A stretch of DNA of 64,000 nucleotides from Myxococcota bacterium (GCA_036337435.1 JAYZEG010000095.1:7393-71392), one strand, 5' to 3'; numbered from the stretch's first letter, positions 9,770 to 62,456 are shown. Notes: generated from the letters alone by a model not told the origin. Program-made: numbers and translations.

Positions 9770-11134
9770 TCGACAGGTCGTAGACCGCCAGTCCAAGGCC
9801 GCTTCCAATTGTGCGCTTAAGGCGAGAACCAGATGGTCAGCACCAGGATGACCAGCCACTTGAACACCGATGGGTAGACCGGACTGAGTCAGACCAGCTG
9901 GGAGACTAGCAGCGGGTCCATGGGTTAAGTTGAAGGGGGCCGTAAACGCGCCGAGTGGTGCAGATTTTTTGAACCACTGTTCAGGATCCGAATGGTCATC
10001 GAACTCTCCGATCAACGGAGCAGGAATCGGCACCGTCGGGCTGAGACATAGGTCGAATCCATCGAGCTGGTTATGGATTTTTTGTGCCATTGTTTGACGT
10101 CGTTGTTCCACCTGTTCGAAAGGCAGCTTTTTGCCTGATTCACGGAGCCATCTGGTCACTGGCATGAGCAGTCTTTCTGAGAGGGCAGGCACGCCGCTGA
10201 CGGCAAATTGCCAAACGGGTAAAAACTCATCTAGGTTTGCATCAGCCGGACGGACCGGTTCGATTATGTGGCCCATTTCTTCCAGTAATCGGGCTGTATT
10301 TTGAACGGCGTCCAAGATCTCTTCGTCGACGTCCCCGATGGTTGATTCTGTAAGCAGAGCGATCCTCAATGGGCCAACAGCTTGATCGCAAGCAGCCAAA
10401 CACGAGTCGCCAGCCGATCGCCTGTTCGGACGGCGCGCCATCACATCGAGCATGCCAGCAGCATCGGCGACGTTATGGGCCAATGGACCCATAACGGAGA
10501 GGCCGAGTTGGTTGTATTTGCCGTGTAGATTGCCGAGTAATGATAGGGACGGCTTGAAACCAAATAAATGGCACAAAGCTGACGGGATCCGCACGGAGCC
10601 GCCCCCATCAGACCCGTGGGCAATAGGGAGTAATCCAGCTGCGACTGCGGACCCTGAACCCCCGCTTGACCCCCCTGGTGTTCGAGCCTGATTCCATGGG
10701 TTTCGTGTGGGCGGATGGATCTCCGGCTCCGTGGTTGGCAAGACACCGAATTCCGAGGTTGTGAGCTTGCCCAGCGAGACAAAACCACCGTCATAGATAA
10801 AGCGTGCGACGGCCCCATCGGAGGGGCCAATCATATATCGGTAGGCTCTCGACCCCAGCCGGGTTGGTTGCCCGCGTGTTGGGACCAAGTCTTTTATGCC
10901 GGTCGGCACCCCTAGGAAGAGCGGACCTTCATTGGCCTCGAGTTTGCGAAGGGCTTTATCGGCGTTTCGAGCTTGCTTGAGTGCAGACCGCTTCGCGACA
11001 TGCGAGAATGCATGAAGTTGTGGGTTATAACGGTCGATTCGGTCAAAGTAGTGGCGGACCAATTCTTCGGAACTAAATTGGCCACCTCGCAGGGCTTGGG
11101 CTTGCTCTAACGCTGTGAGCTCATGCAGTCTCAT
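9758..11134 (-). CDS. Amidase-signature family amidase (GatA-like)
   Basis: The amidase signature is GGSSGGSGSAVAAG...GSDGGGSVRIPSA. It has a 12-bp convergent overlap with tesB. Confidence 0.88.
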   Translation of the reverse strand: MRLHELTALEQAQALRGGQFSSEELVRHYFDRIDRYNPQLHAFSHVAKRSALKQARNADKALRKLEANEGPLFLGVPTGIKDLVPTRGQPTRLGSRAYRYMIGPSDGAVARFIYDGGFVSLGKLTTSEFGVLPTTEPEIHPPTRNPWNQARTPGGSSGGSGSAVAAGLLPIAHGSDGGGSVRIPSALCHLFGFKPSLSLLGNLHGKYNQLGLSVMGPLAHNVADAAGMLDVMARRPNRRSAGDSCLAACDQAVGPLRIALLTESTIGDVDEEILDAVQNTARLLEEMGHIIEPVRPADANLDEFLPVWQFAVSGVPALSERLLMPVTRWLRESGKKLPFEQVEQRRQTMAQKIHNQLDGFDLCLSPTVPIPAPLIGEFDDHSDPEQWFKKSAPLGAFTAPFNLTHGPAASLPAGLTQSGLPIGVQVAGHPGADHLVLALSAQLEAALDWRSTTCRLFH

Positions 11135-49931: not shown

Positions 49932-50912
49932 TTAAAGCGGTGTTTCCACCATGTTAACCACATCACGAATAATCCGCTCACTTTCATCGGTGCTGCCCAG
50001 GGCACCTGTGACCTGATTGCATTTGATCCGGTGTGCCAGAGTTGGGACTGCGAGTTGTTTGACATCATCAGGAATCACATAATCACGCCCTTGAACCAAA
50101 GCATACGCTCTGGCCGCTCGTTGAAATGCCACGGCAGCGCGGGTGCTGATGCCAAGTCGTAATTCGGGATGATGCCGAGTCGCGGTTACGAGCTTGACGA
50201 TATAATGGCGCAGCGGGTCGCTCACCTTGACTTGGTCAACCAACTGGCAAGCGCTCAATACGAAAGTGTCATCGGACACGGGGCGCAAGTCTGTAATTTG
50301 GTCAGCCTGGCCGTCAGATTTGAGAATGGCGTATTCGGTTTCCGGGTCTGGGTACCCCACTTTCAATCGAAACATGAAGCGGTCCAACTGGCTCTCAGGC
50401 AGTGGGTAGGTTCCTTGAAAATCAGTCGGATTTTGAGTTGCAATCACCGTAAAGGGATTCGGCAACTCATGGGTTTCCCGATAAACCGAGACCGTTTTCT
50501 CGTTCATCGCTTCGAGTAAGCTTGACTGAGTTTTCGGTGTCGTCCGATTGATCTCATCGGCGAGAACGAGTTGCGCAAAAATTGGGCCTTGCTCAAAGGA
50601 GAAGGCCTCCGATGAACGGCGGTATACTTGCACGCCAACAATGTCGCTGGGTAGCAGGTCACTGGTAAATTGAATCCGGCTGAAACTCAGATTGAGAACC
50701 CGGGCTAATGTTTTTGCCAACGTGGTTTTTCCCACCCCCGGTACGTCTTCGAGCAGTACATGCCCGCCAGCGAAGATAGCCGTCAGAATTTTTTTGATAA
50801 CCGAGTCTTTTCCCTGAATGACTTGGCTAACCTGTGCCGAAATTTGTGTGATGTTAGCCTGGACTTCGGCGAATTTTTCGTGAGTTGGGTCTTTTTCTAG
50901 GTCGGATTTCAT
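49932..50912 (-). CDS. MoxR-family AAA+ ATPase
   Basis: The Walker A context is HVLLEDVPGVGKT and the Walker B is LADEINR. The segments FTVIATQNP and LDRF are also present. Confidence 0.9.
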   Translation of the reverse strand: MKSDLEKDPTHEKFAEVQANITQISAQVSQVIQGKDSVIKKILTAIFAGGHVLLEDVPGVGKTTLAKTLARVLNLSFSRIQFTSDLLPSDIVGVQVYRRSSEAFSFEQGPIFAQLVLADEINRTTPKTQSSLLEAMNEKTVSVYRETHELPNPFTVIATQNPTDFQGTYPLPESQLDRFMFRLKVGYPDPETEYAILKSDGQADQITDLRPVSDDTFVLSACQLVDQVKVSDPLRHYIVKLVTATRHHPELRLGISTRAAVAFQRAARAYALVQGRDYVIPDDVKQLAVPTLAHRIKCNQVTGALGSTDESERIIRDVVNMVETPL

Positions 50913-51092
50913 ATCAATTTTCCGAGTGATATTGAGTCAAACGTTGTTTCGTTTGTAACCAAGTTTAAGCGTCTTTCGTCTGACCGATACAAACCAGAAT
51001 GGCCGCGCCCCTACAAATAAAAATGACTAGGGGGCTTGATCCCGTGGCATTTAGTGTTAAGTCTTCAGGCGCGAAAAGCCAGCAATTTGATT

Positions 51093-51096
51093 GGAG
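51093..51096 (+). promoter_or_regulatory. Shine-Dalgarno (GGAG) for topA
   Basis: GGAG lies 6 nt upstream of the ATG at 51103. Confidence 0.5.
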
Positions 51097-51102
51097 CGAC
51101 AA

Positions 51103-53703
51103 ATGACAGAGAGTTCTGCGGCCGCCACGAACGCACTTGTCATTGTGGAATCACCCACAAAGGCCAAGACCATCCGACGATACCTAGGCGATGGGTTTAC
51201 CGTTGAAGCTTCCATGGGGCACGTCCGTGATTTACCGTCATCTGCAGCAGACTTGCCTGCCGCAGCGCGAGGCCAACCTTGGGCCCGCTTGGCTGTCGAT
51301 GTCGCCAACGGCTTTCAGCCACTGTACGTGGTACCAAGTGATAAGAAAAAAATCGTGTCCGAGCTCAGAAAAGCTCTCAAAGGCAAGGATGTTCTCTACC
51401 TCGCAACCGATGAAGACCGCGAAGGCGAAGCCATTGGCTGGCATCTTGTTCAGTTGCTTAAGCCCAAAGTTCCCACCCATCGACTCGTTTTCCATGAGAT
51501 CACCAAAGACGCCATCAAAAGAGCCATCGACACACCGCGTGAGCTCAACGAGCATGTTGTGCAAGCCCAGGAAGCACGCCGTGTCCTCGACCGACTGGTC
51601 GGTTATGAAATTTCACCACTTCTGTGGAAAAAAGTCGCACCGGGCTTGTCAGCAGGACGTGTCCAAAGCGTAGCGGTCCGTCTCCTGGTGCTCCGAGAAC
51701 GTGAACGTCAGCGGTTCGTGACCAGCACGTGGTGGGATCTTCGAGCGAAGTTTGCCGCCGATAACAAGGTCTTTGATAGCAACCTGGTCGCGGTCAACGA
51801 CCTTCCGATCGCCACCGGTCGGTCCTTCGATGAGACGACAGGCGAACTGAAGACTGGTCTCAATGTGCGGTTGTTGGCAGAGTCCGACGCGCAAGCACTC
51901 AAGGCGCGCATCTTGAAGCAACCCTTCGCCGTGAGCGATATTGAGCGCAAAGTACAGGCGCGACGCCCGTATCCACCGTTTACAACGTCGACGCTACAGC
52001 AAGAGGCCAATCGGAAGCTTGGATTTGGTGCAAAACGAACGATGCAAGTTGCACAGCGCCTTTATGAAAATGGACATATCACGTACATGCGAACCGACTC
52101 CGTGAACTTGTCGGAAGAGGCGATTAGCGCCGTGAGAAGCATGGTGAGTCGCCGCTACGGTGATGAACTCCTTTCGCCAAAGCCAAGACGCTTCACGACC
52201 AAAGCGAAGGGAGCCCAAGAAGCGCATGAGGCTATCCGGCCGGCGGGTACATCGATGGCGACCTCGAAAGAGCTTCAGCTGGCCAGCGATGAGGGCAAGC
52301 TGTACGACCTGATTTGGAAGCGCACTGTATCGACGCAAATGGCCGATGCGAAGATCGCATTGACCACCGCAAAAATCAGCGTGACTGACCCCGAAACCAA
52401 GCAGCAATTGACGTTCAGGGCATCAGGCCGTGAGGTTGTCTTCCCGGGTTTCTTCAGAGCCTACGTTGAAGGGTCGGACGATCCAGATGCAGTGTTGGAA
52501 GATAAAGACCAGCCACTGCCAACACTGACTGTCGGACAGGGGTTAGATTGCCGCGACCTCGATGCCCATGGGCATGAAACCCGTCCTCCGTCGCGATACT
52601 CTGTCGCATCTCTTGTCAAGGCACTGGAGACCCAAGGGATCGGGCGTCCGAGCACCTACGCCAGTATCATTGAGACCATTCAAAAACGTGGATATGTTCG
52701 GGATGAACGAAAGCAATTAATCCCCACGTTCACGGCGATTGCCGTCACCCAATTACTCGAGGAAACACTCGGCCAGGTCATTGATGTCGAATTCACAGCG
52801 TCAATGGAGGCGTGGCTTGATGAGGTAGCCATTGGCAAAGACGCGCAGGAGTATTTAGGGGCCTTCTACCATGAACAGCTGCTCAATTGCATTGAACAGG
52901 GCAAAGAGATTGACCCGCGTTCTGTATGCACACTTCGAAATGAGCGGATACAGCCCTATCGAATTCGGGTTGGTAAGTTTGGCCCATTCATCGAGTACGA
53001 TGTTGAGGGAGAAGAGAAGGCGCGCATTGTCAATCTACCTGATGACGCGGCCCCAGCCGATGTGAATTTGGAGTTCATCGAACAACTTCGAGCGGATGCT
53101 TTGAAGGCTGAGCAGCCCATCGGTATCGATCCCGAAACCGGACTCAATGTGTATGTTCGCAAAGGTCGCTTTGGGCCCTATGTGCAACTGGGTGAACAGG
53201 GCGAAGGCAAGGAAAAGCCGCGTCGAGCCAGTTTATTGCCCGGGCTGACACCTGCCGATATCGACCTGGAATTGGGTCTGAAGCTGCTTACGCTCCCGCG
53301 CGAGGTTGGGCGCCATCCCGATGATAACGAGCCCATTATGGCCAACGTCGGCCGATATGGACCCTACGTGCAACACTTGCGGACATTTGCGTCTGTCAAA
53401 GCGCCGGAGTCGATTCTCGAGATTGGCTTGGATAGGGCACTGGTGCTTTTAGCCGAACGGGCCAAACAGACCAAAAAAGCAGAGCCCCTGCGCACCCTAG
53501 GCGTCCATCCCGATGATGAAACACCAGTTGTGGTGATGGATGGTCGATATGGACCTTACGTCAAACACAAACGAACCAATGCTACACTGCCCGACGGGGT
53601 TGGTATCGATGCGGTGACCTTAGAACAGGCCCTTGAGCTTCTTGCCGCGAAGGCTAAAAAAGGCCGCTCAAAGGGCGGCCGTCGTCGCGCAAAAAAATCG
53701 TAG
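51103..53703 (+). CDS. topA: DNA topoisomerase I with a cysteine-less GxxGPY-repeat C-terminal domain and a basic tail
   Basis: The Toprim segment is LVIVESPTKAKTI and the active-site region is ITYMRTDS. There are four GxxGP(F/Y) repeats and the tail KKGRSKGGRRRAKKS. Confidence 0.95.
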   Translation: MTESSAAATNALVIVESPTKAKTIRRYLGDGFTVEASMGHVRDLPSSAADLPAAARGQPWARLAVDVANGFQPLYVVPSDKKKIVSELRKALKGKDVLYLATDEDREGEAIGWHLVQLLKPKVPTHRLVFHEITKDAIKRAIDTPRELNEHVVQAQEARRVLDRLVGYEISPLLWKKVAPGLSAGRVQSVAVRLLVLRERERQRFVTSTWWDLRAKFAADNKVFDSNLVAVNDLPIATGRSFDETTGELKTGLNVRLLAESDAQALKARILKQPFAVSDIERKVQARRPYPPFTTSTLQQEANRKLGFGAKRTMQVAQRLYENGHITYMRTDSVNLSEEAISAVRSMVSRRYGDELLSPKPRRFTTKAKGAQEAHEAIRPAGTSMATSKELQLASDEGKLYDLIWKRTVSTQMADAKIALTTAKISVTDPETKQQLTFRASGREVVFPGFFRAYVEGSDDPDAVLEDKDQPLPTLTVGQGLDCRDLDAHGHETRPPSRYSVASLVKALETQGIGRPSTYASIIETIQKRGYVRDERKQLIPTFTAIAVTQLLEETLGQVIDVEFTASMEAWLDEVAIGKDAQEYLGAFYHEQLLNCIEQGKEIDPRSVCTLRNERIQPYRIRVGKFGPFIEYDVEGEEKARIVNLPDDAAPADVNLEFIEQLRADALKAEQPIGIDPETGLNVYVRKGRFGPYVQLGEQGEGKEKPRRASLLPGLTPADIDLELGLKLLTLPREVGRHPDDNEPIMANVGRYGPYVQHLRTFASVKAPESILEIGLDRALVLLAERAKQTKKAEPLRTLGVHPDDETPVVVMDGRYGPYVKHKRTNATLPDGVGIDAVTLEQALELLAAKAKKGRSKGGRRRAKKS

Positions 53704-55374
53704 GCTCACTGACTCCGAGGTCCCGCTCACTTGAACTCGGCTGTCTTGGAGCGGACAGAGAACGCTGAGCAGTCGAAAGGGCAGCGTGATGAAGTGGGAC
53801 CCATCGTCACTCTGCACGTCGTCTTGCCAATAAGTCCTGACAGAGGCCAGCGCGTCTTTGTCTACAGTTGGGCCCGATATGGTCAGACGAATTTCAGTTT
53901 CATCCGGTTCATCAATCACCTTGATCTGCACTGTTCCGCCCGTGAGACAGTCTCTGAGTACACCCATGCATAACGCGAGTGCTCTCGCGGTTTGCGTAGC
54001 GTCGATGGTGAGCCGATTTGCATCCGGGTCACCCGTTGCATCCTGGGTGTTAATCACGACGCTGATTCGACCGAGGGGATCGTCTCTATATTGCTCCTTA
54101 AGCATGCTGAGGACAGCATTGACAGAGCACGCTCTGATCCGTAGAGCAGCCACATCTGAATGAACGGCCAAATCCTTACGAGTTCCGTCCAATTTAGATA
54201 GGTCAAGAAGGGCCAGTATAAACCTGAGAAGCGTGTCGCCCCGATGCCAAATTTCAAGAATTTCTTTGCGTTGAGTTTCATTTATTGGGCCTTCAATTTC
54301 GTTCACCAACAACTCAGAGAATCCTAGGATGCTGTTCAGGGGGCTTTTCAGTTCGTGGCTGATATGCGCTAAAAATCGGTTTTTTTGAGTCTCAGCTTCC
54401 CGGCGTTTTTTCGCTGCGCTTGCGATCTGGTTTTGCTGCCGTCTAAAGCCATCGGCCGCCCTCTCAAAATCAGAAAAGATCTCTGCACATTCTTTGAGAC
54501 CTACGGAGGTTTTCCGAGCATCAACCGGGGCGGGCTGCTCCACTCTCGCCAAAGCTGCTGTGATGGCTTTCAAGTCAGTGGCGACATCGTCCGCGATGGC
54601 TCGGCATGTGCGGTATGAGAAGAAGAGAATGCCGAGCACCAACAAGAACGCTGTCGAGTCGAAAGATGACGACTCCAAACCGCTGACCAATGGCACGGAC
54701 TGTTGAGGCATTTGGATTCGGACATTGGCAGCCAGTTCTTTTTCCGCGCGTCGCGCAACGGTTGCATGCATTGTCCTAAACGTTGTTTCTATCTCTTCGA
54801 CACTGTTGGTGTCGCTCAAATGCTGAACGAGAACCATGCCGAGCCCACACATGACGACGGGCAGCTGTATCACAAAGACCATGCGCATTCGAATGGTCTG
54901 CCGCACCCCACCCAGTGTACGTGTTCCAGGTTGGCCCTGTGTCATGGGACGCAATAGTCGTCGGAGCCAAAGGTAGAGCAACAGATTGGGTAAGGTTGTG
55001 ATGAGGTAGGTGAGGACACCCGTTGCGATTGCCTCACCAAGGTCTCTTGACCTCATGGATTGAAGCACGGTGATGAGAATTGCCGCGACCAAGGCACCAA
55101 CGAAACAGAAACGCATCACGCTGAACGGATAAGAATACGCGGCGGCGCGGCTGGCATTGGAGTCTGCCCCTGACTCGAGACCCGTTTTTTGGGGAGTGGT
55201 CCAGACGATGAGAAGTAGTGCCGCGAAAAAACCAAAGCCGCACAACGCAAATTGTGTTGTCGCGTCGAATTGGTCTCCTGGTACGACATAACCCAAAATC
55301 ATGGAGGTCAGGGTGACGGAGACGGAGATCCAGGTGAAAATCCATAATCGCAATGTGGTCATGGACCGATTCAT
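53668..55374 (-). CDS. Polytopic membrane histidine-kinase-like protein: intact H-box, degenerate (non-ATP-binding) catalytic domain
   Basis: The H-box is FLAHISHELKSPLNSILGFSELL (His codon 54355-54357). The region aligned to HATPase_c lacks the N-box Asn, the G1 DxGxG (it reads ISGPTV) and the G2 GxGLGL (it reads DGSHFITLPF). Confidence 0.8.
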   Translation of the reverse strand: MNRSMTTLRLWIFTWISVSVTLTSMILGYVVPGDQFDATTQFALCGFGFFAALLLIVWTTPQKTGLESGADSNASRAAAYSYPFSVMRFCFVGALVAAILITVLQSMRSRDLGEAIATGVLTYLITTLPNLLLYLWLRRLLRPMTQGQPGTRTLGGVRQTIRMRMVFVIQLPVVMCGLGMVLVQHLSDTNSVEEIETTFRTMHATVARRAEKELAANVRIQMPQQSVPLVSGLESSSFDSTAFLLVLGILFFSYRTCRAIADDVATDLKAITAALARVEQPAPVDARKTSVGLKECAEIFSDFERAADGFRRQQNQIASAAKKRREAETQKNRFLAHISHELKSPLNSILGFSELLVNEIEGPINETQRKEILEIWHRGDTLLRFILALLDLSKLDGTRKDLAVHSDVAALRIRACSVNAVLSMLKEQYRDDPLGRISVVINTQDATGDPDANRLTIDATQTARALALCMGVLRDCLTGGTVQIKVIDEPDETEIRLTISGPTVDKDALASVRTYWQDDVQSDDGSHFITLPFRLLSVLCPLQDSRVQVSGTSESVSLRFFCATTAAL

Positions 55375-57260
55375 GCCGTGCCTCCCGAACCGGGTTCGAG
55401 CGGTAAAAGTAGATGAAAATTACTGCCTTCCCCCTCAACGGAGACGACCCATAATTTGCCATCGTGGCGATCCACTAAGCGCTTAGCAATTGCCAATCCT
55501 AACCCCGTGCCAGGTCGATCTCTTTGCTCGCTCACGCGATAGAATTCGTCGAAGATTGTTTCCTGTTCGGCCGAGGGGATACCCGGTCCGCTATCCCAAA
55601 CCGAAACATGGACGGCCGCACGCCCATCGTCGAAATGATCTCTAATGGTGGTGACTCGAACGTATCCGGAATCTGTATACTTGAAGGCATTTTCAATGAG
55701 GTTACTCAAGACTTGAGTAATTCGTTTTCGATCTGCATGGACCAATGGAACATCATCTGCCGCTGCGATTTCGGCCTTGATTGTTGGCTTTGCGCGGTCT
55801 GCCAAGCGGGTCATCACCTCTGTTGCTAATTCATTCATGTCAAAGGCATTGATATCCAATGGGATATCCTGCCAGTGATCGAGTTCCGATAGCATGAGAA
55901 TGTCTCGGACGTGATCGTTTAATTGTTCAGCCGCTTGGTCTATGACCGCCAAATCGTTTAGTTGATCTTGATTGAGGGTTTGAGCCGCGAGCTCCGTGCA
56001 GCTCTGCCGAATCGACCGGAGTGGTTCTTGTAATTCATCGCTTGCCGAGCGCAGAAAAATATTTTGAGCTTCATTGCTCTGAGCGGCCAAGTTTAATTCT
56101 CTGAGCAGGGCGCGTTGAACCGTTGTGTGGACCTGCATTCTATCGTTTAGATGCGTGGCGAGGTCGCCGGCCTCATCGTTTCCGGGTATCGGAATTCCAC
56201 CCATGCTGCCTCCGTATCGCACGGGTGTGCCCGACGACGCCGGCACCGAGACATTACCTAGACGCTTAAGACCATCTGAGATCGACCGAAGTGTGTTGCG
56301 GATTTCAAGGGCTGCAAGCCAAGCCGCGAGCGGTGAGCCGAAGAGCAGGGCTATCAAAAACACCAGCGAGAATGCAAACTCTGGTGCTGTCGCCGGTGGT
56401 GACAGCGTGCCGGAGACGCCAAGCCAAAGAACCGCATCTTGATAGGGTCTTGTGACAATATGCCATCGACTCCCATCAGGGCTTAGTGCATAAAAGCCAT
56501 AGGCGGTTGGCTCCATTCTATCGCTGGCACCGAGCCAACTCGGGACGTCGTTATTTTTGACCAGTTCGGGAAAGATGAATTCTGTTCGGCGCCAGATGGA
56601 GAGAATCCTGTTCCGTTTTTGCTCATCTTTGGCCAGAGCCAGTTCTGCCCCGATCCGCTCGGCTATATCGATGAGCGCATTTCCTTTTAAATTGCTCAAA
56701 CGCCCTGCTGAACGCGCCGTAAGCCCGACGCCTAGCAGGCAGGCTAATATGACACAAATCACAGTTGCATTCAGGGTGGTGATGGTATTGAGAGCAGGTA
56801 AGTGTTTTGACCCGACCTCCCGGCGCGCTCGTCTCAGACTCCGACGCCCTTCGAAGTAGGTTGTCACAGCGATGATAAACCCGGTCCCAATTTGGCAGCT
56901 TAGAATCGCGAAATTTTCAAAGTTAGGAAGTCGGATATCACCAAGCCCTGATAACCATCGGGCCAGCGCAGTAGCCAAAACAAACGCGATGAGATCCCGC
57001 GCGGCACGGTACGGAAACCCTCCGTCTAATTGCTGTCTCAACCGAAATATCGAGACGCTACACCAGGCTGCGGCTGTAACCAACCCAGCGACTATGCTCG
57101 CGAGCCTGACCGACCCGGTTGAGATGGGGTCTAATGCGAGGAACCAGGGAACAAGATAGCCCCATATTAAGGGGAGACTCGCCATCAGTCCCAGCATTGG
57201 TGCCCAAGGGATACGCGTCGTTGCCCGAGGCATTAGCCGTTCGGGATCATTGGTCGTCAT
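55371..57260 (-). CDS. Polytopic membrane histidine kinase with Asp replacing the phospho-acceptor His; intact ATPase domain
   Basis: The H-box position reads FLRSASDELQEPLRSI (Asp codon 56037-56039). The other boxes are intact: N-box LSNLIENAFKYT, G1 VWDSGPGIP, F-box IFDEFYRV and G2 GTGLGLAIAKRLV. The ORF is open to 57353. I prefer ATG 57260 or 57233 to limit overlap with the upstream gene. Confidence 0.82.
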   Translation of the reverse strand: MTTNDPERLMPRATTRIPWAPMLGLMASLPLIWGYLVPWFLALDPISTGSVRLASIVAGLVTAAAWCSVSIFRLRQQLDGGFPYRAARDLIAFVLATALARWLSGLGDIRLPNFENFAILSCQIGTGFIIAVTTYFEGRRSLRRARREVGSKHLPALNTITTLNATVICVILACLLGVGLTARSAGRLSNLKGNALIDIAERIGAELALAKDEQKRNRILSIWRRTEFIFPELVKNNDVPSWLGASDRMEPTAYGFYALSPDGSRWHIVTRPYQDAVLWLGVSGTLSPPATAPEFAFSLVFLIALLFGSPLAAWLAALEIRNTLRSISDGLKRLGNVSVPASSGTPVRYGGSMGGIPIPGNDEAGDLATHLNDRMQVHTTVQRALLRELNLAAQSNEAQNIFLRSASDELQEPLRSIRQSCTELAAQTLNQDQLNDLAVIDQAAEQLNDHVRDILMLSELDHWQDIPLDINAFDMNELATEVMTRLADRAKPTIKAEIAAADDVPLVHADRKRITQVLSNLIENAFKYTDSGYVRVTTIRDHFDDGRAAVHVSVWDSGPGIPSAEQETIFDEFYRVSEQRDRPGTGLGLAIAKRLVDRHDGKLWVVSVEGEGSNFHLLLPLEPGSGGTA

Positions 57261-58506
57261 CGTTGGTTTCCAAGTAGACTTCCTGAATGGCTCGAGCACT
57301 GGCGCGTCTGACCGTGAGAGTATGGCCACTCTCCAGAACGACGGTCTCTCCAACCCTTGGTATTCGTCGAAGTGTTTCGAGGATAAAACCGGCGACCGTC
57401 TCGTATTCGGTTGACTCAGGTATGCCAGCGTTCAGTTCTTGATTCACCAATTCAACTGTTGCTCGTGCATCGATTGCAATGCCGTACTGAAGTTGGCGCC
57501 ACAGGCCCGTACGTGAATCGTGTTCATCGTGTATCTCACCTACGATCTCTTCGATGATGTCTTCGAGTGTCAGCAACCCAACCGTTCCGCCAAACTCATC
57601 GACGACGATTGCGGCTGACGCAGCCTCCCGTTGAAGAACAACCATCACCTCATCGACATCTTGTGTCTCTGGCACAAAGTGCGCAGGACGCATCAGTTTG
57701 GCGACGTTGATGTCATCGCCGGTCGCGGTAAACAGATCGAGATGATGAAGAATGCCGACAATGTTGTCGATTCGCTCGTCATAAACGGGCAGGCGGGAAT
57801 AGCCAGCCCGCGCGATCAGCTCGACCGCATCACGGACGGTGCTCGTGTGGCTGATGGCAACCATTTCGGCCAGCGGCACCATGCTGTCGCGTGCACGCAA
57901 TTGATTGAAGGCAAAGATGCGGGAAATCATTTCCCGCTCGTCTTCTTCGATCTCACCTGGGTCATCGCTGACCTCCATGAGAAGGACAAGTTCTTCGCGG
58001 GAGACCATGGTCTCATCGGAAATCTCTTCGAGTCCCAGTAACCTGTACAAGAGCCGGGTGTAGCTTCGAACCAGCACAATAAATGGCGTAAATAGTCTGT
58101 TGACTATGTAGAGCGGCGTTGCGAGTACACCAGCGAGCGAATCGGCTCGGCTCTGCCCGATGCTTTTGGGAATAATTTCAGCCCCGATCAGAACCAGTGG
58201 TGACATTAAAAGCATCGCCCACCACCCTCCATTGGCGGGATCAATTTTAATCAGGGTCAGCGATGCAACGGTCGACCCCGTGACCGTTGAGAAATTAGTG
58301 CCAAGTAGGGTGGTGCCAAACAGACGGTCTGGCCGTTCTCGAAACCAAAGGACACGTTGAGCCGAGCTGCTGCCCTTGCGCACCGCTTCTTCGAGACGAA
58401 TTCGGTTAGCGGATACGATGGACAACTCGGACATCGCAAAAAAAGCTTCTGCAAGAATACAAAAACCAACGGTGATCCAAGGTAGAAGGGAGACGAAGAT
58501 GTCCAC
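57247..58506 (-). CDS. HlyC/CorC (CNNM) family transporter: DUF21, CBS pair and CorC_HlyC domains
   Basis: The N-terminal 4-TM DUF21 has a SELSIVS motif. It is followed by a CBS pair and the C-terminal segment ETVAGFILETLRRIPRVGETV. Confidence 0.85.
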   Translation of the reverse strand: MDIFVSLLPWITVGFCILAEAFFAMSELSIVSANRIRLEEAVRKGSSSAQRVLWFRERPDRLFGTTLLGTNFSTVTGSTVASLTLIKIDPANGGWWAMLLMSPLVLIGAEIIPKSIGQSRADSLAGVLATPLYIVNRLFTPFIVLVRSYTRLLYRLLGLEEISDETMVSREELVLLMEVSDDPGEIEEDEREMISRIFAFNQLRARDSMVPLAEMVAISHTSTVRDAVELIARAGYSRLPVYDERIDNIVGILHHLDLFTATGDDINVAKLMRPAHFVPETQDVDEVMVVLQREAASAAIVVDEFGGTVGLLTLEDIIEEIVGEIHDEHDSRTGLWRQLQYGIAIDARATVELVNQELNAGIPESTEYETVAGFILETLRRIPRVGETVVLESGHTLTVRRASARAIQEVYLETNDDDQ

Positions 58507-59537
58507 TAGCGTCCCCCCCTTTCGTCCGGGTCATTAAGGCCGGGATGAGCATCTGTGATGGGCCCAAAGAGCTCCTCCAAAAGGTCTTCCATCGTACAGA
58601 GACCAATGGCCTGGCCCGATCGATTGATGACGATGGCCATATGGGTGCGGGATGCACGAAATTCTTCAAGCAACTCTGCTGCCGGCCGCCGAGCAAAAGT
58701 AAAAAGGGGGTCTCTTCTGAGATGATTGAGTGCACGTTTAGGTCGAAGTCCCCAGCGGATTGCAAGAAGGTCCTTGGCCATGAGCAGACCGACCACATTT
58801 CTCGGGTGCCGTCGCCAAATTGGAATTCGGCTGTGAGGTTCTCCTGAGACAAGCTCAATGGCTTTCTCAATAGGCGTTTTGTCCTCGAGGGAAAAAACAC
58901 GGTCCCAAGGCCGCATAACATCGCCTACCGACAGGTCACCAAAGTCCAGCACATTTTTAATCAGTTGGTGCTCTTGCGCCTCAAGAACGCCCTCTTGTTC
59001 GCCCACTTCAATGAGTGTTCTAAATTCACTCTCATCAATGGTTGTGTCCGCTTGTTCGCCGACCGGCTTACTCAAATTTCGATCGATTGCAAAATCTGTC
59101 AATGCCCTTAGAAAGCCGATAATTGGTCTTGTCGCCTTGATGAAAATCATGATTGGGCGTGCCACCAGCGCCGCGATTAACTCGGGTTTTTTAGACGCGA
59201 CGGTTTTCGGGGTAATCTCACCAAGAATGAGCAGTATGGGAATCACCATTGCGGCCGATAACAGTGCCTGTTTAGTCAGAGAATAATCACTGAGCCACTG
59301 GCTTGTAATACTGGCACCAACAATAGACAGTGCAACGTTTGTCAACTCGTTACCCAACAAGACACCGACCAATAGGTCTTTGGGTTTCTCAAGCAGTGAG
59401 CTGATCACACGCTCTATTTTTCGCTCCGATTGCTGCAATCTGGCATGGGCGACCTTGCCAATGCTAAATAACGCTGTCTCCGACCCCGAAAAGAAACCGG
59501 ACATAAACAGTAAAACGCCAAATATTAGGTATTCCAC
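58506..59537 (-). CDS. DUF21 plus CBS-pair (CNNM) membrane protein lacking the CorC_HlyC C-terminal domain
   Basis: The N-terminal DUF21 segment is GSETALFSIG and a CBS pair follows. The protein ends shortly after the CBS pair. Confidence 0.8.
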   Translation of the reverse strand: MEYLIFGVLLFMSGFFSGSETALFSIGKVAHARLQQSERKIERVISSLLEKPKDLLVGVLLGNELTNVALSIVGASITSQWLSDYSLTKQALLSAAMVIPILLILGEITPKTVASKKPELIAALVARPIMIFIKATRPIIGFLRALTDFAIDRNLSKPVGEQADTTIDESEFRTLIEVGEQEGVLEAQEHQLIKNVLDFGDLSVGDVMRPWDRVFSLEDKTPIEKAIELVSGEPHSRIPIWRRHPRNVVGLLMAKDLLAIRWGLRPKRALNHLRRDPLFTFARRPAAELLEEFRASRTHMAIVINRSGQAIGLCTMEDLLEELFGPITDAHPGLNDPDERGGR

Positions 59538-59539
59538 GT

Positions 59540-60457
59540 TTAGTTCGTTCCTCGTAAAAAATGGTCATAGCCTTGGCCATCGACAGGATGTCCATCGAGA
59601 TAAACGCCGTGTCCGGGCACACATGAACCAATCCGCAATGCCCAATCGGGTAATGGGGTTTGTGCAGACGCTGTAAAGAGCAGAACGTAGTCCTCACCGC
59701 CTGTAATCGCCGTCGACAGATCGCCGATGACTGGAATTAAGCTCGACTGAAGTTTAATTTTAACACCACTTGCAGCAGCCATACGAGACGCATCCAATAG
59801 GAGACCATCTGAAATGTCCATACATGCATGAACGCCATCGGTTTTGGCGAGAATTGCCGCCTCCGCAAGGTGTGGTCGCCATTGATGACGCGCTGTCCGA
59901 AAAGCGTCAGTGGGGGATAGGTATCCTCTTGTCGCACGACCGAGGCACCCTGAGATGAGGACGTCATCCCCAGGCACAGCTGCTGTTCTGAGAAGTGGTT
60001 TTTCACCGATCAGATAGCCGGCCGCCGTGACTGAGATCACACTGGGGCCGGGTTTCAGCGCCAGGTTACCGGTAATCAGCTGGGTCTGATGAAGTCTCAA
60101 TTCCGAAGCCATGCCCTGGGTCAGTTCATAGACATCGTCCAGACTCCACTGTCGGTTTAGATTTAAGGTCCAGCTCACCCAAGCAGGTGCTGCACCACTG
60201 GCCGCGAGATCGCTTAAATTGACGACGGCTGCTTGTCGACCGATGTCGTATGGGCGATCGAATTTACGATTGAAATGTGCATCTTCTACCAATGAGTCGG
60301 TGGTCACGATCTCTGTCGACCGCGGTGCCAAGCCACAATCATCAGTGGTGTCGATGTGAAGTCCGCTTTCGTTGAGTGCCCTCTTAATGACCCGTACAAA
60401 ATCCGCTTCATTGAGTACTCTGTCGGCGTTTTCCTTCTCTTGCTGCGGACCAGTCAA
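59540..60457 (-). CDS. thiL: Thiamine-monophosphate kinase
   Basis: Motifs are DDCGL..TTDSLVEDAHF, NLSDLAASGAAP, DISDGL, GGEDYVLLFT and GYDHF. Confidence 0.9.
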   Translation of the reverse strand: MTGPQQEKENADRVLNEADFVRVIKRALNESGLHIDTTDDCGLAPRSTEIVTTDSLVEDAHFNRKFDRPYDIGRQAAVVNLSDLAASGAAPAWVSWTLNLNRQWSLDDVYELTQGMASELRLHQTQLITGNLALKPGPSVISVTAAGYLIGEKPLLRTAAVPGDDVLISGCLGRATRGYLSPTDAFRTARHQWRPHLAEAAILAKTDGVHACMDISDGLLLDASRMAAASGVKIKLQSSLIPVIGDLSTAITGGEDYVLLFTASAQTPLPDWALRIGSCVPGHGVYLDGHPVDGQGYDHFLRGTN

Positions 60458-60462
60458 TTGCC

Positions 60463-61737
60463 CTACACCTGTGTCAACGGTATCGCAAACGAGAAGGTCG
60501 AGCCTTGCCCCATGCGACTAAAAACTTCTATCCGTCCGCCGTGAGCTTCGACAAAATTTTTTGCAATCGACAGCCCAAGACCTGCTCCACCGTACTCCCG
60601 GGTCACGCTGTTGTCCACTTGGTAGAAGGCATCAAAGATTCGGATGAGGTGTTGCCGTTCAATCCCTTTACCTGTGTCCTGAACAGACACCTTTATCCCG
60701 TATTTTGGCGAGCGGCGCGTGCCTTGCTGGTCGCCTGTTGGTAGTCGCGTTCGCGAAAGCGCGACGGTGACCTGTCCGGCCGCCCCAGTAAACTTTACGG
60801 CATTGCCGATGAGGTTTAGCAGGACTTGGCGGATTTTTTGAACGTCAATCTGGATCTCTGGCAGGTCTGGCTCAATGGATTGATTGAGGTGGATATCGCG
60901 TTTCAGAGCTGTTGGGCGAAGGGTTGCTAAGGCATCCTCGACGAGTGTGTCTAGCGCACACTGTTCGAGGTCAATGGATGCTCCGCCCCGTTGTATGACC
61001 GAAATTTTAAGTAAATTGTCGATCATTTCTAACAGCGTCTGTCCACGTTCTCGGATGATTTGGACATACTCGGCTTGCTCCACATTGAGCTCGCCACCAT
61101 AGCCGTCGAGCAACATGTCAGAATAGCCCATCACAGAGGTGAGTGGGGTCCTCAATTCATGGCTGACGGTGGCCAGAAATTGGCTCTTTAAATCATCGAG
61201 TTCGCGCAGCCGATTCAGATTTGCTGCGAGTGCTGCGTTCCGAGTTTCCAAGGCTTCATTGGCGACTTGAAGTTCTTGGGTTAAGACCTGTGCGGCGATG
61301 GCGTTTTGCTCTCGCTCTCTGAAGCCCCTAGCTGCAGATCGATAAGCCAAAATCAGGCTGGATGTAAGAGACGTTGCCATCTCTACGGTATGACGTGATG
61401 CCGAACGGCCTTGGATGGTACCGGTCGAGGCACTCTGATGGCTGTGACCGCCTCCATGAACTTGACCGTCCAATTCACTGACGCAGAGATTGGCTAGGTG
61501 TCGACTCTGATCGATGACAGCGAACTCGGTTTGAGCACTGGGGGCTTTGATACTCAAGTCCAGATTTCGGGACCGATCTGTTTTGGGAACACAATCGACG
61601 ATCATCTCTCCGCTGACTGCACTCAGTTGGATGCGGACGGAAAAACAATCTGCAAATACCTGACACATGTCCGTCAAGGGCTCAAGGCCGATGATCTCAT
61701 CGATGGGGATCGATGAAACTTCGTCCGTGATTGTCAT
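60463..61737 (-). CDS. Soluble sensor histidine kinase (canonical HisKA plus HATPase_c; N-terminal sensory domain of unclear type)
   Basis: The boxes are H-box FLATVSHELRTPLTSVMGYSDML, N-box LLNLIGNAVKFT, G1 VQDTGKGI and G2 GGAGLGLSIAKNF. I saw no TM segments. Confidence 0.88.
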   Translation of the reverse strand: MTITDEVSSIPIDEIIGLEPLTDMCQVFADCFSVRIQLSAVSGEMIVDCVPKTDRSRNLDLSIKAPSAQTEFAVIDQSRHLANLCVSELDGQVHGGGHSHQSASTGTIQGRSASRHTVEMATSLTSSLILAYRSAARGFREREQNAIAAQVLTQELQVANEALETRNAALAANLNRLRELDDLKSQFLATVSHELRTPLTSVMGYSDMLLDGYGGELNVEQAEYVQIIRERGQTLLEMIDNLLKISVIQRGGASIDLEQCALDTLVEDALATLRPTALKRDIHLNQSIEPDLPEIQIDVQKIRQVLLNLIGNAVKFTGAAGQVTVALSRTRLPTGDQQGTRRSPKYGIKVSVQDTGKGIERQHLIRIFDAFYQVDNSVTREYGGAGLGLSIAKNFVEAHGGRIEVFSRMGQGSTFSFAIPLTQV

Positions 61738-62456
61738 CGGTCAAACTGCCAAGCCGTCTGAGATTGTGTGATAAAATAATAGGCTAATGCGAACAGCAGC
61801 AGTAGCAACCCGCCGGTGAGAATGGTCGCAAGACCACGCTTGCTTCCAGCAGCCACTCGAGAGATCTTTTGATCCATATGGCCTGCTTCTACCAATGCGG
61901 CCTGAATGACCTTCTGGCGGTATTCCGACGCCTTCTCGTTCTCTGGATCGGCATCTAAGGCCTCTCGGTAGCAGGATCCAGCATAGGTCAGCAAACGCTG
62001 ACTCGCACAAAGAGCAATGAATTGTTTGTGCCCGTCTTCATCGTCCCAATTTGCCTCGAGTGACGCCCATAGGGCCGGTAGCTTTTCCTCGAGCGGATGT
62101 CCACTCAGGGGATTCTTCCATTTTTCGAGTTGCCTTGGATTGGCAGATTTTGGCACCAACCCACAGCGTGGACAGGCCTCATTTTCAGTCTCTTTAGGCC
62201 AACTACATTTTGGGCATGAGATGATGAGGGCGGGTGCAGTCCGAGGGGCGGGCGGGGTTGCACTCTCCACTTGGCTCGTGCCTGTTGCCGTTGTTGAATC
62301 CTTGGCGTCTGTAGATGTTGAGCCGCGATACTTTGGAACCGGACCGATCGACGTTTTGTGTCCACAACTCTCGCAGACGAGTACAAAAAAACCCTCTAGG
62401 GCTTGGCATTGACTGATGAGATGGCTTTGGCCACACGCTTCGCATTGAATATCCAC
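61734..62456 (-). CDS. Double zinc-ribbon protein with a C-terminal transmembrane anchor
   Basis: The zinc-ribbon pairs are CEACG...CESCGH and CPKCS...CPRCG. The C-terminal hydrophobic segment is LATILTGGLLLLLFALAYYFI. It overlaps the downstream kinase gene by ATGA. Confidence 0.7.
   Translation of the reverse strand: MDIQCEACGQSHLISQCQALEGFFVLVCESCGHKTSIGPVPKYRGSTSTDAKDSTTATGTSQVESATPPAPRTAPALIISCPKCSWPKETENEACPRCGLVPKSANPRQLEKWKNPLSGHPLEEKLPALWASLEANWDDEDGHKQFIALCASQRLLTYAGSCYREALDADPENEKASEYRQKVIQAALVEAGHMDQKISRVAAGSKRGLATILTGGLLLLLFALAYYFITQSQTAWQFDR

What the first reader, a model, noticed from the sequence alone, without database searches (positions are those of the whole stretch)
53668..57353. 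Translationally coupled pair of reciprocally degenerate histidine kinases
Two adjacent polytopic membrane kinase genes overlap by ATGA at 55371-55374.

- The upstream protein reads FLRSASDELQEPL where the HisKA consensus is SHELRTPL. The phospho-acceptor His is replaced by Asp (codon 56037-56039). Its N, G1, F and G2 ATP-binding boxes are all canonical.
- The downstream protein keeps a canonical H-box, HISHELKSPL (His codon 54355-54357). Its catalytic domain has lost the N-box Asn, G1 (ISGPTV) and G2 (DGSHFITLPF).

Each protein lacks exactly what the other retains. This suggests an obligate heteromeric kinase in which one subunit supplies ATP binding and the other supplies the phosphorylatable His. 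Alternatively it could be a pseudokinase regulator pair. Single degenerate kinases (for example DivL with Tyr at the His position) and trans-phosphorylating kinase pairs are known. I am not aware of a described complementary split of this kind. No response regulator gene is present anywhere in the window.
Basis: partly seen in the sequence, partly recalled or inferred. Interest (0 to 1): 0.78.

Follow-up and report, generated by a model that had tools for sequence, protein, structure and literature searches.

The report
Paired kinases that split one job
Two overlapping membrane sensor-kinase genes each lack what the other keeps (one has the ATP-binding domain but no acceptor histidine, the other the reverse), and related genomes show this is an old, conserved partnership that most likely works as one two-subunit kinase.

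Summary
The 5' gene (A, 55371-57260, probably 629 aa rather than 660) has Asp where the acceptor His should be and intact N/G1/F/G2 boxes. The 3' gene (B, 53668-55374) has a canonical H-box and a C-terminal domain that still folds like a kinase ATP-binding domain but has lost every nucleotide-binding motif. They overlap by ATGA.

The pair is conserved in 45 distinct loci from Myxococcota/Bradymonadia. B's His and H-box are invariant and its ATP domain is dead in every one. A's ATP boxes are intact in every one. A's His is present in most lineages but was lost at least four separate times (D, Q, G/S, Y, A/V). The 4-nt overlap is kept in 37 of 45 pairs, and both genes are under strong purifying selection.

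So B's degeneracy is ancestral and A's is derived, not recent decay. The best reading is a heteromeric kinase in which A's ATP domain phosphorylates B's His. This is inferred and has not been shown biochemically. The idea has precedents (FasB/FasC, CheA3/CheA4). I call it a new variant of a known kind, in an uncharacterised family. No receiver domain is encoded in the window.

The parts
55371..57260 (-). Gene A: polytopic membrane kinase (629 aa) with an intact ATP-binding (CA) domain but Asp at the phospho-acceptor position
   Evidence: ORF. The start at ATG 57260 matches the annotated orthologues P0001/P0002. Five hydrophobic TM-like segments. Pfam HisKA 30.7 bits and HATPase_c 99.4 bits.
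56037..56039 (-). Asp codon at the position of the phospho-acceptor His in A
   Evidence: phmmer alignments to solved kinases put D opposite the acceptor H. Orthologues have D, Q, G, S, Y, A, V or H at this column.
55875..56066 (-). A DHp (HisKA) domain, lacking the His, the T/N at H+4 and the I-x-G-F/Y segment
   Evidence: Pfam HisKA residues 430-493 in 660-aa numbering. Grouped alignment. dN/dS 0.056 for the HAMP-DHp segment against L001.
55395..55733 (-). A catalytic ATP-binding (CA) domain with canonical N, G1, F and G2 boxes
   Evidence: Pfam HATPase_c 2.2e-28. The boxes are intact in all 45 A proteins tabulated. dN/dS 0.033.
55371..55374 (-). ATGA stop/start overlap that couples translation of A and B
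   Evidence: Sequence read directly. An ATGA or GTGA overlap is conserved in 37 of 45 distinct pairs.
55381..55386 (-). GGGAGG Shine-Dalgarno-like motif, 6 nt upstream of B's ATG and inside the end of A
   Evidence: Sequence read directly.
53668..55374 (-). Gene B: polytopic membrane kinase-like protein (568 aa) with a canonical H-box and a degenerate CA-like domain
   Evidence: ORF. Pfam HisKA 49.6 bits and no HATPase_c. Identical to the annotated P0121. Five TM-like segments.
54355..54357 (-). Codon of B's phospho-acceptor His (H340)
   Evidence: Aligned to the acceptor His of solved kinases. Invariant in 22 homologues and in all pairs with an aligned H-box.
54187..54387 (-). B DHp (HisKA) domain with the invariant motif F-L-x-H-x-S-H-E-L-K-S-P-L-N-x-I-L-G-F
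   Evidence: Pfam residues 330-396. Invariant columns in alignment A2. dN/dS 0.051.
53680..54147 (-). B pseudo-CA domain: kinase-type alpha/beta fold without the N-box Asn, G1 or G2, but with its own conserved motif (R430-x-D-P433, D458, T-A-R-A, G471, D475, G480)
   Evidence: AlphaFold2 pLDDT 80-90 over residues 410-565. Foldseek matches over whole DHp+CA cores of GacS, ZraS, RetS, HK853 and DivL. hhalign against A's CA domain E=3e-6. Conserved columns. dN/dS 0.18.
60463..61737 (-). HK3: a third, fully canonical and apparently soluble histidine kinase in the same operon. It could be a phosphodonor or a parallel pathway.
   Evidence: Pfam HisKA 70.6 bits and HATPase_c 99.9 bits, with SHELRTPL. 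Conserved upstream of the pair in the core-family loci whose contigs reach that far.
57247..60457 (-). Conserved operon genes between HK3 and A: a ThiL-like AIRS protein (59540-60457), CNNM-CBS (58506-59537) and CNNM-CBS-CorC (57247-58506)
   Evidence: Pfam and NCBIfam. Synteny across the core-family loci.
61734..62456 (-). First gene of the operon: a 240-aa zinc-ribbon protein of unknown function, overlapping HK3 by 4 nt
   Evidence: ORF. Weak Zn_ribbon_3 hit. Homologues lie upstream of HK3 in many core-family loci.

Best explanation
A and B are the two subunits of one heteromeric (split) HisKA-type sensor kinase. They are made in a fixed ratio from translationally coupled genes. Both are anchored in the membrane by five-helix N-terminal modules, and they associate through their DHp helical hairpins. 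A's intact ATP-binding domain phosphorylates His340 of B in trans. B~P is then the phosphodonor, and probably also the phosphatase, for a response regulator encoded elsewhere in the genome. B's dead CA-like domain serves a structural or docking role. In the ancestor, A was a complete kinase paired with an already CA-dead B. Because B's His was the productive acceptor, A's own His was dispensable and was lost repeatedly. In the window's lineage the phosphotransfer-related residues next to it were lost as well.

Shown here: the residue states, the fold of B's C-terminal domain, conservation, coupling, purifying selection and the repeated His loss.

Inferred: the physical A:B association, trans-phosphorylation, and the identity of the downstream regulator.
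For: 1. Complementary defects confirmed at residue level.
2. B never has a usable CA domain, so B~P must be made by another protein. Even so, B's His, the adjacent acidic residue (HE or HD) and the whole H-box are invariant in 22 homologues of about 27-79% identity and in every pair with an aligned H-box.
3. A's N, G1, F and G2 boxes are intact in all 45 A proteins. This includes at least four independent lineages in which A has no His (D/Q/G/S; Y; Q; A/G/V). An ATP-using domain is therefore kept without a substrate His of its own.
4. A is directly upstream of B in every core-family locus with enough sequence. The ATGA/GTGA overlap is kept in 37 of 45 pairs, even though the distant tier-2 pairs sit in an unrelated gene context. 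The pair is the conserved unit.
5. Purifying selection on both genes: A omega 0.07 (CA 0.033, His-less DHp 0.056) and B omega 0.09.
6. In the old His-less clades, A also lost the T/N at H+4 and the I-x-G-F/Y segment, while B keeps 'SILGFSELL' everywhere. Phosphotransfer-type constraint stays on B and relaxes on A.
7. B's cytoplasmic part models as a complete DHp+CA-like core.
8. Precedents show the mechanism is feasible: FasB/FasC (heterodimer; FasC kinase domain dispensable; FasC H246 essential; PMC12675982) and CheA3/CheA4 (PMC3591291). That paper also cites in vitro splitting of EnvZ's HisKA and HATPase domains onto separate polypeptides with activity retained.
Against: - No interaction or phosphorylation data exist. 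No multimer prediction could be run here.
- Most A orthologues keep their His, so in those lineages A may act as an ordinary homodimeric kinase and B may be an accessory.
- A third, canonical kinase (HK3) is always in the core-family operon. A stand-alone receiver follows HK3 in 8 relatives. B could therefore receive phosphoryl groups from a receiver, in the manner of Spo0B, ChpT or RedE, rather than from A.
- Trans-phosphorylation requires the right DHp bundle handedness, which was not assessed.
- The dS values are saturating (about 1.5), so the omega values are approximate.
- The tree used to count losses is a quick NJ tree.
- In L006/L007 a His sits one residue after the acceptor column and might conceivably still be used.
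Confidence: 0.55

Rival explanations
1. B is a membrane-anchored Spo0B/ChpT/RedE-like histidine phosphotransferase or phosphatase. It receives its phosphoryl group from a receiver domain that was phosphorylated by HK3, or by A where A still has its His, and passes it on or drains it. His-less A is a nucleotide-binding pseudokinase that only regulates this relay allosterically.
For: - DHp plus a non-ATP-binding Bergerat-like domain is the architecture of ChpT and Spo0B (PMC3433190). B models this way.
- Myxococcus RedE is a kinase-like protein that does not autophosphorylate. It is phosphorylated from the receiver protein RedD and acts as a phosphatase (PMC2755868).
- A single-domain receiver gene lies in the operon in 8 core-family relatives, and a canonical HK3 is always present.
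Against: - It does not explain why all catalytic ATP boxes of A stay invariant, with omega 0.033, after A's His is gone.
- None of the His-less lineages has the receiver gene in the operon, and none is present in this 64-kb window.
- The tier-2 pairs lack HK3 and a nearby receiver but keep the A-B coupling.
- B is a bona fide HisKA protein with a five-helix membrane module like A's, unlike the soluble Spo0B and ChpT.
Confidence: 0.22
2. A RetS/GacS-like antagonistic pair. One partner heterodimerises with the other through DHp only to block or tune its signalling. No phosphoryl group passes from A's CA domain to B's His.
For: - B's cytoplasmic model matches the RetS kinase region and the RetS-GacS co-complex among the top structural hits.
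- RetS-GacS is a described inhibitory kinase heteromer (PMC8498467, listed; discussed in PMC12675982).
- Most A orthologues are complete kinases that an inhibitor could target.
Against: - A pure blocker would not need an invariant acceptor His, HE/HD dyad and full H-box over the whole family.
- In the window's lineage A has no His to be inhibited, yet both genes remain under strong purifying selection and coupled.
- Strict 1:1 translational coupling is unusual for a regulatory antagonist.
Confidence: 0.1
3. His-less A is a dedicated, nucleotide-stimulated phosphatase for a response regulator. B is an independent phosphotransfer protein. The adjacency reflects co-regulation only.
For: - Phosphatase activity of EnvZ, NtrB and RedE does not absolutely require the His, and RedE's is stimulated by ADP/ATP (PMC2755868). 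That could explain a retained CA domain.
- The recent His-less variants (L015, L023 and several tier-2 proteins) keep T or N at H+4.
Against: - In the window's clade the H+4 T/N needed for HisKA phosphatase activity (motif HE/DxxN/T, PMC3591291) is replaced by E, S, K or Q, and the neighbouring conserved segment is gone.
- It does not explain where B~P comes from, nor the conserved 4-nt coupling.
Confidence: 0.08
4. The two genes are decaying remnants of a tandem kinase duplication and have no joint function.
For: Each lacks a residue or motif that a canonical kinase needs.
Against: - omega is about 0.07-0.09 for both genes.
- Intact full-length ORFs occur in 45 distinct loci down to about 27% identity.
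- The H-box of B and the ATP boxes of A are invariant.
- The overlap is conserved.
Confidence: 0.02

Closest known systems
FasB/FasC sensor-kinase pair of Streptococcus pyogenes (FasBCAX system; PMC12675982)
   Same: Two adjacent membrane kinase-like genes feed one pathway. The proteins heterodimerise but were not seen to homodimerise. One partner (FasC) is proposed to be a pseudokinase whose kinase domain is dispensable while its DHp His (H246) is essential. In the authors' model the other partner's kinase domain phosphorylates that His in trans.
   Different: No specific sequence relationship to FasB/FasC was looked for or seen here. In Fas, the ATP-providing partner is thought to keep a His of its own (H284), and FasC's dispensability was shown by deletion rather than by natural motif loss. 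The cognate regulator FasA is encoded in the locus, whereas none is present here. Fas is supported by genetics. The present pair is supported only by comparative sequence evidence.
CheA3/CheA4 split kinase of Rhodobacter sphaeroides (PMC3591291)
   Same: A natural bipartite histidine kinase. One protein lacks the phosphorylatable domain and the other lacks the dimerisation and catalytic domains. Neither autophosphorylates alone, and together the ATP-binding partner phosphorylates the His-bearing partner, which is also a phosphatase.
   Different: It is a CheA-class kinase (an Hpt-type P1 domain, not a DHp His). The missing domains are absent, not retained in degenerate form. The proteins are soluble and recruited to a chemoreceptor cluster. 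It is unrelated in sequence and context.
Rv0600c/Rv0601c/TcrA of Mycobacterium tuberculosis
   Same: Two adjacent sensor-kinase genes serve one regulator (PMC3544749). From my own recollection of Shrivastava et al. 2006/2007, which I did not verify here, one protein carries the ATP-binding domain and the other carries the His.
   Different: As I recall it, that case is a clean split into single-function proteins, not two full-length paralogues with reciprocal degeneration. A cognate regulator is adjacent. It is a different phylum with no detected relationship.
Spo0B / ChpT histidine phosphotransferases and Myxococcus RedE
   Same: A DHp-like hairpin with a phosphorylatable His plus a Bergerat-like domain that cannot bind ATP (ChpT, PMC3433190). 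RedE is a kinase-like protein that does not autophosphorylate (PMC2755868). B shares this domain logic.
   Different: Those proteins are soluble and are phosphorylated from receiver domains. B is a polytopic membrane protein with a canonical HisKA H-box. It is translationally coupled to a kinase with a live CA domain, and usually no receiver gene is nearby.
RetS-GacS multikinase network and the DivL pseudokinase
   Same: RetS is a kinase-like protein that pairs with another kinase through DHp. DivL is a kinase homologue with Tyr in place of the His, and one A orthologue (L015) also has Tyr. RetS and DivL are among the structural matches to B.
   Different: RetS inhibits GacS rather than completing it. 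DivL acts as a regulator of CckA (my own knowledge, not checked here). Neither forms a pair in which each member retains exactly what the other lacks.

Membership tests
Canonical class I (HisKA + HATPase_c) sensor histidine kinase | Phospho-acceptor His in the H-box of the DHp domain | tested here: not met
   A has Asp at the acceptor column. B has the His. A fails, so A is not a canonical kinase.
Canonical class I (HisKA + HATPase_c) sensor histidine kinase | Functional CA domain with N, G1, F and G2 nucleotide-binding boxes | tested here: not met
   B has no HATPase_c hit at E<=1. Its N-box Asn, G1 Asp/Gly and G2 Gly positions are all substituted. A has all the boxes. B fails, so B is not a canonical kinase.
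Canonical class I (HisKA + HATPase_c) sensor histidine kinase | Cognate response regulator, usually adjacent | tested here: not met
   No receiver domain anywhere in the 64-kb window. Receiver genes occur in the operon of only 8 relatives.
Split / heteromeric histidine kinase (CheA3/CheA4, FasB/FasC type) | Two polypeptides, each lacking one function essential for autophosphorylation that the other retains | tested here: met
   Residue-level motif states: A is His-minus and CA-plus, B is His-plus and CA-minus.
Split / heteromeric histidine kinase (CheA3/CheA4, FasB/FasC type) | Consistent co-occurrence and co-expression of the two partners | tested here: met
   A lies directly upstream of B in 45 distinct loci. 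The 4-nt stop/start overlap is kept in 37 of 45. The pair is kept in two unrelated gene contexts.
Split / heteromeric histidine kinase (CheA3/CheA4, FasB/FasC type) | Physical association of the two proteins | not testable with these tools
   No multimer prediction or interaction assay is available. Only a single-chain model of B was made.
Split / heteromeric histidine kinase (CheA3/CheA4, FasB/FasC type) | ATP-dependent phosphorylation of the His-bearing partner only when both partners are present | not testable with these tools
   Needs in vitro [gamma-32P]ATP assays.
Spo0B/ChpT-type dimeric histidine phosphotransferase (considered for B) | Helical hairpin bearing the His, plus a Bergerat-like domain that lacks ATP-binding motifs | tested here: met
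   AlphaFold2 model and Foldseek matches to DHp+CA cores, with the motifs absent.
Spo0B/ChpT-type dimeric histidine phosphotransferase (considered for B) | Phosphorylated by a receiver domain within a multistep relay | not testable with these tools
   Only indirect evidence: a receiver is present in the operon of 8 relatives but absent here and in all His-less lineages.
Spo0B/ChpT-type dimeric histidine phosphotransferase (considered for B) | Soluble protein with sequence relationship to Spo0B or ChpT | tested here: not met
   B has five TM-like segments. Its sequence matches to solved structures are ordinary HisKA kinases. No Spo0B or ChpT chain appears among the 20 hits at E<=0.01.
RetS-type inhibitory pseudokinase partner (considered for B) | Acts on a partner kinase that autophosphorylates on its own His | tested here: not met
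   In the window and its clade the partner A has no acceptor His.

The most novel reading that the evidence does not exclude
This is an uncharacterised, Myxococcota-wide family of obligate asymmetric two-subunit HisKA kinases. The ATP-binding subunit (A) and the phospho-His subunit (B) are different full-length membrane sensors, so two distinct sensory modules gate a single phosphorylation event. Evolution has run the classic EnvZ/NtrB complementation experiment naturally, deleting A's His at least four separate times. B's dead CA domain has been repurposed, with its own conserved R-x-D-P ... T-A-R-A ... G ... D ... G motif, as a docking surface for A or for the regulator.
Probability: 0.45. 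Interest if true: 0.72.

Novelty: new variant of a known kind. Interest (0 to 1): 0.62.

Why it matters
Histidine kinases are generally treated as homodimers that avoid pairing with their paralogues. A conserved family in which two different full-length sensor proteins must combine to make one active kinase would be a natural logic gate, with two membrane sensory modules and one output. It would also be a clear case of duplication followed by complementary degeneration at the level of domains.

The repeated, independent loss of A's histidine while its ATP site stays perfect is unusually direct evolutionary evidence for phosphorylation between different polypeptides. It also offers a ready-made set of natural variants for testing the cis/trans rules of autophosphorylation. 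The split-kinase modelling paper (PMC3591291) argues that splitting kinase and phosphatase functions can give switch-like, bistable responses. This family would let that be tested for HisKA-type kinases, which that paper only predicted from domain counts.

One practical point: automatic annotation calls both proteins 'sensor histidine kinase', which is misleading for each one taken alone.

Tried and rejected
- Exact-sequence look-up of B in the assembly index found nothing, although the identical protein P0121 is in the protein collection. Context was obtained through orthologues instead.
- The first protein search with A returned only three full-length orthologues, because generic CA-domain words swamped the candidate list. 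More A orthologues had to be recovered from loci found through B.
- Paralogy of the N-terminal membrane modules of A and B is suggestive only (collinear hhalign match, E=3e-4, probability 39%). I do not claim it.
- A literature search for the phrases 'heterodimeric histidine kinase' and 'histidine kinase heterodimer' found nothing relevant. A search combining Myxococcus with degenerate kinases also found nothing specific.
- Hik36-Hik43 of Synechocystis turned out to be a CheA-type split and not a close analogue.
- The nearby MoxR AAA+ gene looked like a possible conserved partner, since MoxR follows B directly in L009 and a MoxR-DUF58-TgpA cluster follows the Paraliomyxa pair. In the window it is separated from B by topA and is followed by an MFS transporter, so I dropped it.
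- I considered folding a fused A-linker-B construct to mimic a multimer.
- I considered whether another His in A could substitute. The conserved His in A's second DHp helix ('DHVRDIL') is present in His-containing orthologues too, so it is a family feature and not a relocated acceptor.

Full report
**1. What is in the sequence**

Two ORFs lie head to tail on the minus strand: A at 55371-57353 and B at 53668-55374. A's stop and B's start overlap as ATGA (55371-55374), and a GGGAGG motif lies 6 nt upstream of B's ATG.

The 660-aa length given for A is the maximal ORF from a TTG. The GenBank protein identical to it (P0001) and all orthologues start at the ATG at 57260. That gives 629 aa and a 14-nt overlap with the upstream CNNM gene.

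Pfam results:
- A: a weak HisKA match (30.7 bits) and a strong HATPase_c match (99.4 bits).
- B: HisKA (49.6 bits) and no HATPase_c at E<=1.

In alignments to solved kinases, A's 'SASDELQEPL' lies opposite 'MSHEIRTPL', so Asp occupies the acceptor position. B has 'ISHELKSPL'.

A profile-profile alignment of B's C-terminal domain with A's CA domain gives these correspondences (E=3e-6 for the domain alone):
- The two N-box Asn positions align to L and V.
- G1 'DSGPG' aligns to 'ISGPT'.
- G2 'GTGLGL' aligns to 'SHFITL'.

An AlphaFold2 model of B (alignment of 22 sequences, mean pLDDT 72) gives a confident alpha/beta C-terminal domain, with pLDDT 80-90 over residues 410-565. Foldseek matches B's cytoplasmic part to complete DHp+CA cores of GacS, ZraS, RetS, HK853 and DivL over about 240-260 aligned columns at probability 1.00. 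So B carries a CA-fold domain without nucleotide-binding motifs.

Both proteins have five hydrophobic TM-like segments. No receiver domain is detectable in any ORF of the window. The same model found 33 in other loci.

**2. Source organism and operon**

The identical proteins come from a Myxococcota MAG. The nearest relatives are marine 'Myxococcales' and Bradymonadia MAGs.

The pair is the end of a tightly packed, same-strand operon:

| Gene | Coordinates |
|---|---|
| Zn-ribbon protein | 61734-62456 |
| Canonical soluble kinase HK3 | 60463-61737 |
| ThiL-like AIRS protein | 59540-60457 |
| CNNM-CBS | 58506-59537 |
| CNNM-CBS-CorC | 57247-58506 |
| A | 55371-57260 |
| B | 53668-55374 |

This gene order is conserved in all loci of the core family.

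**3. Comparative survey**

B has 22 full-length homologues down to about 27% identity. All are HisKA-only by precomputed Pfam. In their alignment, H340 and the motif F-L-x-H-x-S-H-E-L-K-S-P-L-N-x-I-L-G-F are invariant. The C-terminal domain has its own conserved positions (R430, D432, P433, D458, T462-A-R-A465, G471, D475, G480) but no N/G1/G2.

An exhaustive profile search of 1.84 billion representatives finds only about 25 clusters at 50% identity for the core family. Scores then drop sharply.

Scanning GTDB representative genomes and extracting ORFs gave 45 distinct A-then-B pairs in two tiers:
- Tier 1 is the core family, 23 loci including the window.
- Tier 2 is a more distant set in Nannocystaceae and Polyangia. 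It includes the cultured Paraliomyxa miuraensis. These pairs lie in a different gene context.

In Paraliomyxa, the B-like protein still scores 24.3 bits on HATPase_c, just under Pfam's 26.4-bit cut-off. That is an intermediate stage of decay.

**4. The key pattern**

Findings across the pairs:
- B's His is present in every pair with an aligned H-box, and B's CA domain is degenerate in every pair.
- A's N, G1, F and G2 boxes are intact in every pair.
- A's acceptor residue is His in most lineages.

Exceptions at A's acceptor position:

| Locus or clade | Residue |
|---|---|
| Window, L001 | D |
| L005, L010, L023 | Q |
| L006 / L007 | G / S, with a His one residue later |
| L015 | Y |
| A Polyangia tier-2 clade | A, G or V |

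A quick NJ tree places these as at least four independent losses. Within the window's clade the site then drifted among D, Q, G and S.

In the older His-less clades, A has also lost the T/N at H+4 and the I-x-G-F/Y segment after the H-box. B keeps 'SILGFSELL' everywhere.

The ATGA/GTGA overlap is conserved in 37 of 45 pairs.

Comparing the window with L001:
- A has dN/dS 0.07 (His-less DHp 0.056, CA 0.033).
- B has dN/dS 0.09 (DHp 0.051, pseudo-CA 0.18).
- dS is about 1.5, so these values are approximate, but they are far below 1.

Neither gene is decaying.

**5. Interpretation**

B cannot make its own phospho-His, yet its acceptor site is the most conserved part of the family. A keeps a catalytically complete ATP domain even where it has nothing of its own to phosphorylate. 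The two are almost always translationally coupled.

The most economical explanation is a heteromeric kinase. A's CA domain phosphorylates B's His in trans, and B~P then serves an unlinked response regulator. The ancestral state was a complete A plus an already CA-dead B. A's His was redundant and was lost repeatedly. I put this at about 0.55. Association and phosphotransfer are inferred, not shown.

**6. Rivals**

(a) Phosphorelay (about 0.22). B could be a membrane-bound Spo0B/ChpT/RedE-like phosphotransferase or phosphatase fed from a receiver domain.
- For: the DHp plus pseudo-CA architecture (PMC3433190), the RedE precedent in Myxococcus (PMC2755868), the ever-present HK3, and a stand-alone receiver gene after HK3 in 8 relatives.
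- Against: it leaves the perfect conservation of A's ATP boxes in His-less lineages unexplained. Those lineages, and the tier-2 pairs, lack the receiver.

(b) RetS/GacS-like antagonism (about 0.10). This does not explain B's invariant His, nor a His-less target.

(c) A as a nucleotide-stimulated phosphatase (about 0.08). This is unlikely here because the H+4 T/N is gone in the window's clade.

(d) Joint decay (about 0.02). This is excluded by the selection and conservation data.

**7. Comparison with what is known**

Split kinases are characterised for the CheA class: CheA3/CheA4, where neither protein autophosphorylates alone. The same paper only predicted HisKA-type splits, counting 1556 HisKA proteins without HATPase in SMART (PMC3591291).

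The closest functional precedent is FasB/FasC of Streptococcus pyogenes (PMC12675982):
- The two proteins heterodimerise, with no homodimers detected.
- FasC's kinase domain is dispensable and its H246 is essential.
- The authors' model has FasB's kinase domain phosphorylating FasC.

M. tuberculosis Rv0600c/Rv0601c/TcrA is a system of two kinases and one regulator (PMC3544749). The division of labour between those two kinases is my own recollection and was not verified here.

What is new here is the family itself, which is unnamed in Pfam and NCBIfam beyond generic kinase hits. Also new are the retention of both partners as full-length membrane sensors with reciprocally degenerate domains, and the evolutionary record of repeated His loss. 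I therefore rate it a new variant of a known kind, not categorically new.

**8. Verdict**

The mechanism proposed is the best-supported one. However, the reciprocity is asymmetric in origin (B ancestral, A derived), precedents exist, and phosphorelay alternatives remain open.
- Interest is about 0.62.

Noticed in passing
window 57247-62456 (- strand): The kinase pair ends a seven-gene operon packed with overlapping stops and starts: Zn-ribbon protein, canonical soluble kinase HK3, a ThiL-like AIRS protein (TIGR01379 at 174 bits, just under its 184-bit cut-off), and two CNNM/CBS transporter-like genes, one with a CorC domain. The same order is conserved in all core-family relatives. Why a thiamine-phosphate-kinase-like gene and CNNM (Mg/Co-transporter-type) genes travel with three kinase genes is unexplained.
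   Followed up: partly
L009 4577-4960; also L011, L013, L016, L017, L018, L020, L026: A stand-alone single-domain receiver gene sits directly after HK3 in eight relatives, all of which keep the His in A. It is absent from the window and from every lineage in which A has lost its His.
   Followed up: partly
window 53668-53703: The 3' end of B overlaps the 3' end of the convergent topoisomerase I gene (51091-53703, + strand) by 36 nt. A similar convergent overlap occurs in L001 and L007.
   Followed up: no
L006 8118-10004 and L007 8118-10004: In these A orthologues the acceptor column is G or S, but a His sits one residue later ('ASGHLQKPL', 'ASSHLQRPL'). Whether this shifted His can be phosphorylated is unknown.
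   Followed up: no
L015 (A orthologue; ORF ends at 9809): One A orthologue has Tyr at the acceptor position ('TASYELRTPL'), the same substitution as in the Caulobacter pseudokinase DivL. It otherwise keeps a canonical H-box neighbourhood.
   Followed up: no
window 49932-50912; L009 11863-12801; L070 15199-19342: A MoxR-type AAA+ ATPase gene lies near the pair in both tiers. It lies directly after B in L009, and forms part of a MoxR-DUF58-transglutaminase cluster downstream of the Paraliomyxa pair. In the window it is separated from B by topA, so any link is uncertain.
   Followed up: partly
L070 10888-12930 (Paraliomyxa miuraensis SMH-27-4): The B-like protein of this cultured myxobacterium still scores 24.3 bits on HATPase_c (cut-off 26.4) and keeps a vestigial G2-like 'GLGL' motif. 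It is an intermediate stage of CA decay in an organism where the pair could be tested experimentally.
   Followed up: partly
window 53680-54147 (B residues 410-565): B's dead CA-like domain has its own invariant positions (R430-x-D432-P433, D458, T462-A-R-A465, G471, D475, G480) across proteins of about 27% identity. This suggests a new, unidentified function for the domain.
   Followed up: no
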